This document shows positions 43,501 through 46,500 of a DNA stretch of 64,000 nucleotides, in pieces. Numbering within the stretch: the stretch's first letter is position 1; every line of letters starts with the position of its first letter. Position numbers: made by a program. Source of the DNA: Trypanosoma brucei (Eukaryota); the NCBI GenBank assembly GCA_000002445.1, contig CP000071.1:2080001-2144000 (forward strand), in the 5' to 3' direction.

Positions 43501-46500
43501 CGATGAGAGCATTATTTCAGATGTCTAATTTTTGTTTTCTTTTCAACTTTGTCCGTTCGTTTGCCTTGTCGTGCTGGCATGCAGTGCACGCTGCACACGT
43601 GTAACCCATCGGTTGAGCCGCAAGAGAGGACCACCGTGAGGATATGTGTATGTATATATACATACACATGCACAATCTTTGTGGCCTATGCATTTATGAA
43701 AATTTAACACTCTTGAGCACCACGAAGAGCACAAAAACTGGACGATTACACCCCCTCCTAACACTTGCTCCCGCCCCCCTGCAAACGCAAAACCCCCCCC
43801 CCCTTCTTCTGTCCCTTTCATCTTGTCTCCCACCTTCTGCGGCACGACCCAAAACTTAGAGTCAAACTTTGGCAAAAAGTACACAAGGTAAGGAGGAAGG
43901 AAATAGGGGTTGCTTTCTTTTTAAAAAAAGAGAGAGAAAATAAAGGGGGGCTGACAAACAGCACTCCCTCCTCAAAGTCTCCAAATCTAACTTGGACGGC
44001 AGCAGTGAGGGCGGTGCTATACGTAGAACTGGTTAGCAAATCGAATCAGCAAGCGGCACGCAACCTCGACGTGAAAAGCCACCATGTTACGGCACACGCG
44101 TTTCTCCTTCACGCACCAGCGACCACACCTCGTACATTGGCAGTCGCTCGGCAAAACACATTTCGACGTATGTGTCATCGGCGCCGGTCCCGCTGGCATT
44201 GCGGCAGCCCTACGAGCTGTGGACTACAACAAACGGGTCTGTCTTGTAGAAGCAAAGCGTATTGGCGGTTGCGATCTGTGGAATGGCACACTTCAGTCGA
44301 AAACGTTGTGGGAAATGTCAAATTTTTTGGGGCGCGCGAGGGGAAGTTCCGCCGAACGGGTGTATGGAACTACCATTTCAAATTTTATGGAACTCGACGA
44401 TGAACGCATGCTGCAGACATTGCAAGAGGTGAGCGAGACGCGGGAAAAGCAGGTACTATCTGCCCTCAGCGCCTCTAACGTGGCGTTACTCTACGGTCGC
44501 GCCGCTTTTGCTAGCCCTCATGAGTTAGAGGTCAGTAGCCGCGAGGCAAAGGAGTACCGAACGGTGACGGCTGATTATTTCATCATCGCCACAGGTTCTG
44601 TCCCTGTCACGCAGCCACATGTGCCCGTGGACCACAAGAACGTGGTGACTTCCGATGACCTTATGACGTTACCGCTGCCAAAAAGCATGGTAGTGGTGGG
44701 TGGCGGCGCGCTTGGCAGTGAATTCGCGACGACATACGGCAGGCTTGGTAAGACCAAGGTGTTTCTACTAGACAAGAAGGAGCGCATAATGCCGAAGGAA
44801 GATGATGATGTGGCAGCAACGATACAGAAGGGAATGGAAAAGCATGGCGTAGAGGTGCACCAAGATTGCTTGCTGTACAGCTTACAATCACTGACCAAAA
44901 GTGAGAGTGATGGCCAGGAGACACCAAATGACGGCACCTCGGGGAATGGAGTTCGCTATACCATCATGCACCGCAAGACACATGAACTTCAGACGTACGA
45001 AGTGGAGCGGGCCCTCATCGTGACTGGGCGCCGACCGAATTACTTCGGACTGGGCCTACGTAATACTAACTGCGAAGTGCGCGACGGGGTACTTGTGCTA
45101 GACGAGTTTGGCAGGTGTGTAAACCAAAAACACATTTACGCCGTGGGAGACGCAACAGGTCGTGACAGGTCAGTTAGTATGGGCGAAGCGAAGGGGCGGT
45201 TGGCAGTAGATCATATATACAGTCCACACATAACGGAGCCGCTTCACCCCGACCATTCCAGAATTGTATTCCTAGACACTGCCGTAGCTTCCGTGGGAAA
45301 AAACGAAAAGCAGTGCAGAGAAAAAAATGTATCGTATGTAGTGGCCAAGTATGGGTTTGAACTCTGCAGTCGCAACGTGGCTGCGAGCAACACCGAAGGG
45401 TTTGTAAAAATACTCGCGAGTAATGACAGTAAAAAGACGCTTCTCGGCGTTCACGTAGTGGGATGGAGCGCAAGTACTATCGTAGAGTTCGCTACCGCGG
45501 CGATTCAACGTAAACAGTCGGCATACGAGCTGAGTGAAATGCTCACAGCGTACCCATCCGTTTCACAAGCATTTCTAGAGTGCTTGCGCGTCATATTGGG
45601 CACATCCATGTTAAAACCCGGTACATTCCCCGGTCTCGTCTGCAATACATGGACTCCGTCTGACTGTGAGCGAGGTCGGGGCTATTGTTCGCTGGGAAAT
45701 GCTCAAGGCGGTGGCAAACAATAGGTGGCAAAGCAGCCGATGGTGAGGCAAAGCTGAAAAGCAACCGAGGATATCGGGCGACTCTAAATGTTTGTGGAAG
45801 CACACAAGCCTACGGCCCCGTAAAGGGCCCAAATTGCGGATGGCGTGACTGCTGGATGTTCAGTTACAGCTCTTCCATCGTCATGTGTATACGTTTTAGG
45901 GATATGTGAGAGTACTGTTGTGCGCTGGTCCAAAGCAGATCGCATGAGGGCATAAGATCCAGGACAGTGTATTATTACTTCCCTTCCCTCACCCTCATCC
46001 ATTTTCTTCTTTTTTTACCACCCCTCTTATCAGTGAGTTCATAATCAATCGTCTCCTTCCTTCGAAGGTGAGAGACCTATCGACTCCCTACCTTACCTGT
46101 CTTTCGCCTCTCTGCTTTGTTTCATACCGTGCAGTGTTCTGTATACCGTTATGGCCATGGCTGAAATGCGCGGGGAGGGCGAAATCCTCCCCGCGATAAG
46201 CAGTCATTACCAACGGCAACGGGAAAGAAAGCACGTCATCGTGATATAACTTTGAAACGTCTGCGTGCGGACGTTACAACGATCCAAATGTGTGTGTGGG
46301 TGGGGGGGAGGGACTACCCCGATGTTTGAGTACTCACTATGGCGAGGGCCTCATGCATGATGTTTTATCGGACACACATACACACAAATGAATGTCGTAT
46401 CTTAACCAACTTGTAGGCAGGCGCGCTGTCCTTTAGCCGTTGGAACTACTTTGATTGCTGTAGCTTGACTGAATTTTTTTTTTTTCGTTCGGCCGATCCA

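What the first reader, a model, noticed from the sequence alone, without database searches (positions are those of the whole stretch)
44084..45724. Dihydrolipoamide dehydrogenase paralog that has lost all catalytic residues
Homology to E3/DLD runs end to end and the dinucleotide-binding motifs are retained. The CxxxxC redox centre is gone: GGCDLWNGTLQSK replaces GGTCLNVGCIPSK. The His-Glu catalytic dyad is also gone: TAYPSVSQ replaces HAHPTLSE. It is therefore a pseudo-enzyme kept as an intact 546-aa ORF. This implies a non-catalytic role such as nucleotide sensing or a structural subunit. It matches my recollection of a T. brucei gene annotated as DLD with point mutation, directly upstream of PP1-RPB1.
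Basis: partly seen in the sequence, partly recalled or inferred. Interest (0 to 1): 0.5.

Follow-up and report, generated by a model that had tools for sequence, protein, structure and literature searches.

The report
Disulfide-less lipoamide-dehydrogenase-like mitochondrial flavoprotein
This trypanosome gene looks like lipoamide dehydrogenase without its catalytic cysteines and histidine, but it belongs to an old, conserved, expressed family that never had the cysteines, so it is more likely a flavoenzyme with a different job than a dead enzyme.

Summary
Window 44084-45724 (+) is an intact 546-aa ORF with an end-to-end dihydrolipoamide dehydrogenase (DLD) fold. All FAD and NAD motifs are present, D64/T69 replace the CxxxxC pair, and Y490/Q495 replace the His-Glu dyad. 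The window is T. brucei gambiense DAL972 chromosome 8, and PP1 and RPB1 lie directly downstream.

The interpretation needs revising. The cysteines are missing from all 66 kinetoplastid-clade homologues (paralogues A and B, bodonids) and from a bacterial sister clade, so the loss is ancient. The replacement residues are among the most conserved positions: D64 and Y490 are in 65/65 aligned sequences. The gene is under purifying selection, since every difference from its chromosome 4 pseudogene twin is derived in the twin. The protein is detected by mass spectrometry and falls when the mitochondrial import pore is knocked down.

Active soluble transhydrogenases are defined by CXXXXT plus YXXXXE, so these substitutions do not imply a dead enzyme. 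The best reading is a mitochondrial FAD/NAD(H) flavoprotein doing non-thiol hydride transfer. It is not a DLD, STH or LpdA-type enzyme by curated models. A non-catalytic role remains possible, because paralogue B was tagged to the kinetoplast. The gene is already annotated, wrongly, as an E3. Interest is moderate.

The parts
44084..45724 (+). CDS of the DLD-like protein (546 aa + stop). It is paralogue A and the orthologue of Tb927.8.7380.
   Evidence: AF2 model pLDDT 92.5. Foldseek top hits are DLDs with TM 0.92-0.95.
43757..43840 (+). Polypyrimidine tract upstream of the CDS, the likely trans-splicing signal. AG dinucleotides follow it.
   Evidence: Read directly from the sequence. Its function is inferred from general trypanosomatid gene structure.
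44084..44158 (+). Residues 1-25 (MLRHTRFSFTHQRPHLVHWQSLGKT), the predicted mitochondrial presequence. It is basic with no acidic residue.
   Evidence: Nearly all homologues start MLRR/MFR. pLDDT is low. The T. brucei orthologue is marked TargetP-positive in Peikert 2017 Suppl. Data 2.
44180..44197 (+). FAD-binding GxGxxG (G33-A-G35-P-A-G38). E56, at the end of beta-2, follows at 44249-44251.
   Evidence: Invariant in all 108 aligned sequences.
44264..44302 (+). Former redox-disulfide motif GGCDLWNGTLQSK (residues 61-73). D64 is at Cys1, T69 at Cys2, and K73 is retained.
   Evidence: D64 is in 65/65, W66 in 62/65 and A/T/S69 in 65/65 eukaryotic-clade sequences. C63 is not conserved (A36, C18).
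44699..44773 (+). NAD(H)-binding GxGxxG (G206-G211), E213 and the beta-2 acidic residue D230.
   Evidence: D/E230 is in 65/65. K/R231 is in 61/65, whereas canonical DLD is hydrophobic there.
44894..44953 (+). Low-complexity insertion in the NAD domain (about residues 271-290). It is lineage-variable and predicted disordered.
   Evidence: pLDDT is 67-68 for blocks 271-290. DLD alignments have a gap here.
45545..45568 (+). TAYPSVSQ (residues 488-495), replacing HxHPxxxE. Y490 is at the catalytic His and Q495 at the Glu.
   Evidence: Y490 is in 65/65, P491 in 65/65 and Q495 in 56/65. The bacterial sister clade keeps H and E.
45578..45682 (+). E499-C500 and the family-specific C-terminal tail (LKPgtFP...W523-x-P525...RG531R), which canonical DLDs lack.
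   Evidence: C500 is in 64/65 and also 28/31 bacterial sequences. W523, P525 and G531 are at least 98% conserved. The tail is confidently folded, pLDDT 89-97 up to about residue 530. The tail cysteines are not conserved.
45732..45787 (+). Remnant of the last ~56 nt of the deleted paralogue B coding sequence, followed by B's 3' flank.
   Evidence: blastn matches window 45732-47724 to L003 9763-11751 at 91% identity.
47001..48041 (+). PP1 catalytic subunit gene (context).
   Evidence: STPPase_N + Metallophos.
49045..54342 (+). RNA polymerase II largest subunit RPB1 (context).
   Evidence: RNA_pol_Rpb1_1-6 domains.

Best explanation
The gene encodes an expressed, mitochondrially imported, selectively maintained member of an ancient clade of DLD-like flavoproteins that has no redox-active disulfide. 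The clade holds kinetoplastid paralogues A and B, bodonid sequences and a bacterial sister group.

Shown: the protein keeps the complete DLD fold, the dimerisation domain, and all FAD- and NAD(H)-binding motifs. In place of the thiol/acid-base machinery it carries a conserved Asp64 / Trp66 / Ala-Thr69 / Tyr490' / Gln495' constellation and a conserved extra C-terminal tail.

Inferred mechanism: NAD(P)H reduces the bound FAD, and the reduced flavin passes the hydride or electrons directly to a non-thiol acceptor. Candidates are a second pyridine nucleotide (STH-like transhydrogenation), a quinone, or another small acceptor. It therefore cannot act as the E3 of 2-oxoacid dehydrogenase or glycine-cleavage complexes. 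The database names 'dihydrolipoamide dehydrogenase' and 'acetoin dehydrogenase E3 component' are wrong as functional statements.
For: Family and clade:
- Fold and motifs are established.
- All 66 eukaryotic-clade hits and the roughly 37 bacterial sister-clade hits lack the Cys pair. Canonical DLDs in the same alignment have it.
- An NJ tree gives the Cys-less clade 100% bootstrap, the eukaryotic subclade 98%, and paralogues A and B 100% each.

Constraint on the former active site:
- Only 58 of 546 positions are at least 98% identical across 65 eukaryotic-clade sequences.
- Those positions include D64, Y490, P491, E499 and C500 as well as cofactor residues.

Selection:
- All 13 (T. b. gambiense) or 17 (second assembly) amino-acid differences between the window gene and its 98.4%-identical chromosome 4 twin are derived in the twin. 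The twin has also lost its ATG and carries Q177* in one assembly.
- Against T. vivax, pN is 0.18 and pS is 0.87.

Expression and import:
- The Tb927.8.7380 protein group has 18 peptides and 48% coverage.
- Its ratio is 0.70-0.72 (p about 0.01) on ATOM40 RNAi and 1.03 on SAM50 RNAi. It is TargetP-positive (Peikert 2017, PMC5436138).

Precedent: STHs are active flavoenzymes defined by CXXXXT and YXXXXE, and an SXXXXT STH is also active (PMC9460512).

NAD site: D/E230 is retained in 65/65 sequences.
Against: - No biochemical data exist for any member in the literature I could reach.
- The resemblance to STH is partial. The clade has Asp, not Cys/Ser, at position 1. Most members have Ala, not Thr, at position 2. 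It has Gln, not Glu, after the Tyr.
- The clade does not group with STH and scores far below the STH cutoff (226 vs 465).
- Paralogue B (Tb927.4.5040), C-terminally tagged, was annotated 'kinetoplast[25%]' in TrypTag. That fits a structural or DNA-associated role better than a bulk metabolic enzyme.
- Bacterial gene neighbourhoods give no functional hint.
- The ATOM40 effect is modest.
Confidence: 0.55

Rival explanations
1. It is a true pseudo-enzyme. The protein keeps the DLD fold and nucleotide pockets but no longer turns over substrate. It would act as a structural or regulatory subunit or as an NAD(H)/FAD-state sensor. It might work as an A-B heterodimer, by docking on E2 subunit-binding domains, or at the kinetoplast.
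For: - The four residues needed for dithiol-disulfide chemistry are all replaced.
- The kinetoplastid clade additionally lost the His-Glu pair that the bacterial sister clade keeps.
- Paralogue B localises to the kinetoplast in 25% of cells when C-terminally tagged. It is binned under a kinetoplast/antipodal-site category in TrypTag.
- From my own knowledge, not checked here: the 2-oxoglutarate dehydrogenase E2 of T. brucei has a reported kDNA-associated second role.
Against: - Conservation of D64, W66 and Y490 at the old active site is as strict as that of the cofactor motifs. This suggests the pocket is still used.
- Active STHs tolerate the equivalent substitutions.
- No localisation or interaction data are available for paralogue A itself.
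- '25%' kinetoplast signal for B comes from a single high-throughput annotation.
Confidence: 0.3
2. It is a redox enzyme that still uses thiol chemistry through a different cysteine. The candidate would be the family-conserved C500 (or C30, C53 or C411), acting as a single-Cys centre like NADH peroxidase or CoA-disulfide reductase.
For: C500 is conserved in 64/65 eukaryotic and 28/31 bacterial clade members and is Ala in canonical DLDs. C30, C53 and C411 are at least 98% conserved in the eukaryotic clade.
Against: - None of these cysteines lies in the position of the known single-Cys centres.
- C63, next to D64, is not conserved.
- The tail cysteines are not conserved.
- No model coordinates were available to measure distance to the flavin.
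Confidence: 0.07
3. It is a decaying pseudogene, a relic of the chromosome 4/8 duplication, and the ORF is intact only by chance.
For: Jackson 2007 (PMC2212663) discusses pseudogenisation at this paralogous locus. The database name contains 'point mutation'.
Against: - The decaying copy is the one on chromosome 4 (lost ATG, Q177*). All amino-acid changes map to it, and the window copy is ancestral at every site.
- Intact orthologues exist across Trypanosoma, Leishmaniinae, Phytomonas and bodonids.
- The protein is detected with 18 peptides.
Confidence: 0.02
4. It is a genuine lipoamide dehydrogenase, and the motif loss is an alignment artefact.
For: The best-scoring family and fold are DLD.
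Against: - Two independent alignment methods place D64/T69 and Y490/Q495 on the catalytic positions.
- No CxxxxC occurs anywhere near, and the sequence contains no HxxxxE.
- TIGR01350 scores 283, below the cutoff of 408.8.
Confidence: 0.01

Closest known systems
Dihydrolipoamide dehydrogenase (E3; class I flavoprotein disulfide reductase; TIGR01350), e.g. T. cruzi LipDH 2qae and human DLD
   Same: - Same three-domain fold (Foldseek TM 0.92-0.95, rmsd about 2 A).
- End-to-end sequence homology.
- FAD and NAD GxGxxG motifs, K73/E213, GD motif and dimerisation domain.
- Acidic residue at the end of NAD beta-2.
   Different: - No CxxxxC and no His-Glu dyad.
- Extra conserved C-terminal tail of about 30 aa and a one-residue 'GKTKV' insertion.
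- Scores below the curated cutoff (283 vs 408.8).
- Forms a separate clade with 100% bootstrap.
Soluble pyridine nucleotide transhydrogenase (STH / SthA / UdhA; NF003585)
   Same: - An FDR-family flavoprotein without a redox disulfide.
- Thr (Ala in most clade members) at the second Cys position.
- Tyr in place of the catalytic His (PMC9460512; P0109).
- This is the best functional analogy.
   Different: - Asp, not Cys/Ser, at the first position, and Gln, not Glu, after the Tyr.
- 226 bits vs a cutoff of 465.
- STH (P0109) falls outside the clade, so the resemblance is convergent.
- The C-terminal tail is absent from STH.
Mycobacterium tuberculosis LpdA (Rv3303c)-type NAD(P)H:quinone reductase (NF005883; PDB 1xdi)
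   Same: A DLD-like flavoprotein reported to lack part of the disulfide and His-Glu machinery and to reduce quinones with NAD(P)H. This description is from my own knowledge of Argyrou et al. 2004 and was not re-read here.
   Different: Weaker similarity than to DLD (96.5 bits to 1xdi vs 173 to 1dxl). NF005883 scores 204 against a cutoff of 479.
Bacterial 'NAD(P)/FAD-dependent oxidoreductase' sister clade (P0067-P0102; Myxococcales/Polyangiaceae names and a Bacteroidota-like context)
   Same: - 35-40% identity.
- No Cys pair (GGAG...GALSSKT).
- Shared C500, 'GKTKV', 'RILPxEDxD' and 'LVNxGExEGR' signatures and the start of the tail (LKPxVF).
   Different: Keeps HPHPxxxE. Has Gly, not Asp, at position 64. 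It is uncharacterised and no curated model claims it.

Membership tests
Dihydrolipoamide dehydrogenase (E3) | Redox-active CxxxxC disulfide next to the flavin | tested here: not met
   D64 and T69 occupy the two Cys positions.
Dihydrolipoamide dehydrogenase (E3) | His-Glu acid/base dyad (HxxxxE) from the partner subunit | tested here: not met
   Y490 and Q495 occupy these positions.
Dihydrolipoamide dehydrogenase (E3) | Score above the curated equivalog cutoff (TIGR01350, 408.8 bits) | tested here: not met
   282.9 bits. Paralogue B and other clade members score 283-385.
Dihydrolipoamide dehydrogenase (E3) | FAD and NAD(H) binding motifs and the three-domain dimeric fold | tested here: met
Dihydrolipoamide dehydrogenase (E3) | Binding to E2/E3BP subunit-binding domains; lipoamide reduction | not testable with these tools
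   Needs multimer modelling or biochemistry.
Acetoin dehydrogenase E3 component (database name) | A functional DLD encoded with, or working with, acetoin dehydrogenase E1/E2 | tested here: not met
   There is no DLD active site. No E1/E2 genes lie beside the gene in the window or beside bacterial clade members.
Soluble transhydrogenase (STH) | CXXXXT (or SXXXXT) motif | tested here: not met
   DXXXXT here, DXXXXA in most of the clade. The motif definition is from PMC9460512.
Soluble transhydrogenase (STH) | YXXXXE terminal motif | tested here: inconclusive
   Tyr is present in 65/65. Glu is replaced by Gln in 56/65 and kept in 6/65.
Soluble transhydrogenase (STH) | Score above the NF003585 cutoff (465) and placement with STHs in a tree | tested here: not met
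   226 bits. The bona fide STH P0109 (524 bits) lies outside the clade.
LpdA-type NAD(P)H-quinone dehydrogenase | Score above the NF005883 cutoff (479) | tested here: not met
   203.6 bits.
Pseudo-enzyme (concept) | Catalytic residues of the parent family replaced, fold retained, gene under purifying selection | tested here: met
Pseudo-enzyme (concept) | Absence of any catalytic activity | not testable with these tools
   Needs enzymology. The STH precedent shows the substitutions alone do not prove it.

The most novel reading that the evidence does not exclude
The kinetoplastid Asp64/Trp66/Tyr490/Gln495 clade would be a new functional class within the flavoprotein disulfide reductase superfamily. 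Its A and B paralogues, possibly as a heterodimer, would work at the kinetoplast. One option is that they couple mitochondrial NAD(H) redox state to kDNA replication or maintenance. Another is that they supply a kinetoplast-local redox activity. Under this reading the protein is not a bulk metabolic enzyme.
Probability: 0.12. Interest if true: 0.7.

Novelty: new variant of a known kind. Interest (0 to 1): 0.4.

Why it matters
1. Annotation. This gene and its paralogues are named DLD or acetoin dehydrogenase E3. Drug-target prioritisation papers treat them as LipDH (PMC2927427; PMC10115950). They cannot be LipDH.

2. Biology. Kinetoplastids maintain one to two expressed mitochondrial flavoproteins of unknown activity. 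Their substituted active site is as conserved as the cofactor sites. This is a defined, testable orphan, and it could bear on mitochondrial NAD(P)H balance or kinetoplast biology.

3. Method. The case shows that missing catalytic residues in this superfamily do not equal a dead enzyme, as STH already illustrates.

It is not a surprise to specialists that the gene exists, since it is annotated. From my own recollection, the lack of the cysteines was probably remarked on in the T. brucei LipDH literature.

Tried and rejected
- Second copy or remnant in the window: tblastn finds none. Only the 3' end of the deleted paralogue B remains.
- C63 as a shifted redox cysteine: rejected, because the position is Ala in most homologues.
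- C-terminal tail cysteines as a TrxR/MerA-like auxiliary centre: rejected, because they are not conserved.
- Bacterial gene neighbourhoods as a functional hint: three loci, nothing conserved and no E1/E2 genes.
- dN/dS against T. vivax: synonymous sites are saturated (pS 0.87), so only pN << pS can be stated.
- Papers not held: Roldan 2011, Alsford 2011 RIT-seq and Pyrih 2023 MitoTag.
- TrypTag tables as stored are truncated and do not show Tb927.8.7380.
- The kDNA genetic-screen supplement has no entry for either paralogue.
- The diplonemid mitoproteome paper does not mention DLD or transhydrogenase.
- The AFDB50 fold library was unavailable.
- Model coordinates are not exposed, so residue-flavin distances could not be measured.
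Full report
**1. Observation**

Window 44084-45724 (+) is an intact 546-aa ORF starting with ATG. An in-frame stop lies 9 nt upstream, so no longer N-terminus is possible. A long polypyrimidine tract at about 43757-43840 precedes it, as expected for a trans-spliced trypanosomatid gene (function inferred).

Pfam finds Pyr_redox_2, Pyr_redox and Pyr_redox_dim. The best curated model is TIGR01350 (lipoamide dehydrogenase). It aligns over residues 26-507 but scores 282.9 bits against a cutoff of 408.8.

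HMMER alignments to solved DLDs put GGCDLWNGTLQSK on GGTCLNVGCIPSK and TAYPSVSQ on HAHPTxSE. A 120-sequence MAFFT alignment gives the same register. D64 and T69 therefore replace the two redox cysteines, and Y490 and Q495 replace the His-Glu dyad. The following are all retained:
- both GxGxxG motifs
- E56
- the ATG motif
- E213
- the beta-2 acid D230
- the GR motif
- the GD motif

**2. Identity of the locus**

The protein is 100% identical to a T. brucei gambiense DAL972 protein named 'acetoin dehydrogenase e3 component, putative'. It is encoded on FN554971.1 at about 1.89 Mb, followed by a PP1 gene and RPB1.

[quoted passage not shown] Jackson 2007 (PMC2212663) described this locus as part of the chromosome 4/8 duplicon. 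In that account an ancestral tandem pair has one copy lost from chromosome 8 and one copy decaying on chromosome 4.

I could verify this directly:
- T. vivax has A-B-PP1-RPB1.
- T. b. gambiense chromosome 4 has an uncalled A copy, then B (605 aa), PP1 and RPB1.
- The window has A-PP1-RPB1. The last ~56 nt of B's coding sequence and B's 3' flank are fused just after A's stop codon.

**3. The gene is functional, not decaying**

The chromosome 4 A copy is 98.4% identical in DNA. It has GTG instead of ATG, and in a second assembly it also carries Q177*.

I polarised the differences with T. congolense, T. vivax and five other Trypanosoma orthologues. Every one of the 13 or 17 amino-acid differences is derived on the chromosome 4 copy. 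These include changes at otherwise invariant positions (G61D, F214S, A310G, I312T). The window copy is ancestral at all of them. Against T. vivax, pN is 0.18 and pS is 0.87 (saturated).

Peikert et al. 2017 identified the Tb927.8.7380 protein group in procyclic cells:
- up to 18 peptides and 48% coverage
- abundance ratio 0.70-0.72 (p about 0.01) after knock-down of the import pore ATOM40
- ratio 1.03 after SAM50 knock-down
- TargetP-positive

Paralogue B appears in their list of new mitochondrial candidates, with ratio 0.43. Nearly all homologues begin MLRR/MFR with a basic, acid-free N-terminus. The protein is therefore made and, very probably, imported into the mitochondrion.

**4. The loss is ancient and family-wide**

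Among the best 120 database hits, all 66 eukaryotic-clade sequences lack both cysteines. They read R-x-G-G-[A/C]-D-L-W-[N/D]-G-[A/T]-L-Q-S-K-T and T-A-Y-P-x-x-x-Q. This set covers:
- Trypanosoma paralogues A and B
- Leishmaniinae, Phytomonas and Strigomonas
- Trypanoplasma borreli and a Bodo saltans cluster
- unnamed metagenomic sequences

Bodo saltans was identified. The next ~37 hits are bacterial 'NAD(P)/FAD-dependent oxidoreductases' with Myxococcales and Polyangiaceae names. One sits in a Bacteroidota-like context. They are 35-40% identical and also lack both cysteines (GGAG...GALSSKT), but they keep HPHPxxxE. Canonical DLDs further down the list have both motifs.

An NJ tree on 456 columns with 100 bootstraps supports the Cys-less clade at 100%, its eukaryotic and bacterial halves at 98% and 100%, and paralogues A and B at 100% each. 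A bona fide STH falls outside the clade.

No curated NCBIfam model claims any tested member of the clade. The clade shares additional signatures:
- a one-residue insertion 'GKTKV'
- 'RILPxEDxD'
- 'LVNxGExEGR'
- Cys500
- a C-terminal tail of about 30 residues (LKPxxFP...W523-x-P525...RGR)

The gene is on the list of lateral-transfer candidates analysed in PMC4711719. I did not test that claim beyond noting the bacterial sister group.

**5. The substituted site is under strong constraint**

Across 65 eukaryotic-clade sequences only 58 of 546 positions are at least 98% identical. They include D64, Y490, P491, E499, C500, W523 and P525, alongside the cofactor-binding glycines, E56, E213, D240 and D356. 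W66 is in 62/65 and Q495 in 56/65. Position 69 is always Ala, Thr or Ser.

The tail cysteines of T. brucei are not conserved either.

The AlphaFold2 model is confident (pLDDT 92.5, pTM 0.89), including the tail to about residue 530. Only the presequence, a low-complexity insert (about 271-290) and the last ~15 residues are uncertain. Foldseek returns DLDs, including T. cruzi LipDH 2qae, at TM 0.92-0.95 and about 2 A.

**6. Mechanism**

Shown: the fold, dimerisation domain, FAD site and NAD(H) site are kept. The thiol and acid-base residues are replaced by a conserved Asp/Trp/Ala-Thr/Tyr/Gln set.

Established knowledge, from a paper read here: soluble transhydrogenases are active FDR-family flavoenzymes. 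They are distinguished from disulfide reductases precisely by CXXXXT in place of CXXXXC and YXXXXE in place of HXXXXE. An SXXXXT enzyme is also active (PMC9460512). The STH in my alignment (P0109, 524 bits on NF003585) shows Thr and Tyr at these positions.

Inference: this protein most likely still cycles its flavin with NAD(P)H and hands the reducing equivalents to a non-thiol acceptor. D/E230 points to NAD(H). The conserved K/R231, which is hydrophobic in DLDs, leaves NADP(H) open.

I put about 0.55 on 'catalytically active non-thiol flavoenzyme'. Within that, a transhydrogenase-like activity is the leading guess but is unproven.

Membership in STH is rejected:
- the motif is only partly matched
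- the score is 226 bits against a cutoff of 465
- the clade is placed separately in the tree

Membership in DLD and in the LpdA-type family is rejected likewise.

**7. Rival: a real pseudo-enzyme**

This remains credible, at about 0.3. The kinetoplastid clade lost the His-Glu pair that its bacterial sisters keep.

TrypTag annotates C-terminally tagged paralogue B (Tb927.4.5040) as 'kinetoplast[25%]'. The N-terminal tag gives 'cytoplasm[reticulated]', as expected if a presequence is masked. TrypTag bins B in a simplified kinetoplast/antipodal-site category. A signal in a quarter of cells would fit a cell-cycle-dependent kDNA-associated role.

The stored tables do not show paralogue A. Neither a kDNA screen nor a kinetoplast-protein study that I could read mentions either paralogue.

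Other rivals are minor or refuted:
- an alternative single-cysteine centre at C500
- a decaying pseudogene
- a misaligned genuine DLD

**8. Comparison and novelty**

The gene is already in the databases, so its existence is not new. What the held literature does not contain is any functional study, and it does not recognise any of the following:
- the whole kinetoplastid A/B family and a bacterial sister group form one disulfide-less clade
- that clade has its own conserved active-site constellation and tail
- the clade is convergent with STH at two key positions

I rate it a new variant of a known kind, namely disulfide-less members of the flavoprotein disulfide reductase superfamily. Interest is moderate (0.4). 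The practical point is that its DLD/E3 annotation has propagated into drug-target lists and is wrong.

**9. Side observations**

Codons about 23-82 cover the FAD motif and the former redox motif. They are homogenised between tandem paralogues A and B within each species. Third-position identity there is 0.72-0.80 in T. b. gambiense and 0.90-0.97 in T. vivax, against 0.2-0.4 elsewhere. This indicates local gene conversion.

Noticed in passing
window 44150-44330 (codons ~23-82) vs L003 8070-8305; L004 8001-9647 vs 10056-11888: There is localised gene conversion between tandem paralogues A and B. It is confined to the FAD-binding and former-redox-motif segment. Third-codon-position identity there is 0.72-0.80 (T. 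b. gambiense) and 0.90-0.97 (T. vivax), against 0.2-0.4 in the rest of the genes.
   Followed up: partly
window 45729-45790: This is the deletion junction of paralogue B on chromosome 8. Just after A's stop codon the sequence switches to the last ~56 nt of B's coding sequence and B's 3' flank, 91% identical to chromosome 4.
   Followed up: yes
L003 5881-7521 (T. b. gambiense FN554967.1) and L002 5881-7521 (GCA_003543875.1): The chromosome 4 twin of the window gene is a pseudogene. ATG has become GTG in both assemblies, and one also carries Q177*. All 13-17 amino-acid changes are derived on this copy, and no gene was called there.
   Followed up: yes
Paralogue B: L003 8001-9818 (Tb927.4.5040 orthologue): TrypTag annotates the C-terminally tagged protein as 'kinetoplast[25%]' and bins it in a kinetoplast/antipodal-site category. 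This is an unexpected location for a DLD-like protein.
   Followed up: partly
window 26984-29230 and 29703-31949 (-): These are tandem 748-aa genes with BNR_3 + TS_C (trans-sialidase-like) domains, identical at 722 of 748 positions.
   Followed up: partly
window 16002-17087 and 19897-20982 (-): Two 361-aa genes carry a VSG_B domain at a chromosome-internal site. They are identical at 356 of 361 positions and separated by a 221-aa ORF with no Pfam hit.
   Followed up: partly
window ~32000-35800: This is a divergent strand-switch region. Genes are on the minus strand from about 13.4 to 32 kb and on the plus strand from 35.8 kb onward, and the GC skew changes sign there.
   Followed up: no
window 2839-6039 (+): A 1066-aa ORF has a strongly skewed, repetitive central part (GC skew 0.29 and AT skew 0.54 at 4-6 kb). 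It has a Cornifin-like low-complexity match and a C-terminal DUF7759. Several long antisense ORFs in it are probably repeat artefacts.
   Followed up: no
window 43765-44403 (+, other frame): A 212-aa TTG-start ORF overlaps the 5' end of the gene. It runs across the polypyrimidine tract and has no support as a gene.
   Followed up: partly
literature: Two drug-target prioritisation papers list these Cys-less paralogues as lipoamide dehydrogenase: Tb927.8.7380 and Tb927.4.5040 in one, Tbg972.4.5230 and LmjF.31.2650 in the other. This is annotation error propagation (PMC2927427; PMC10115950).
   Followed up: yes
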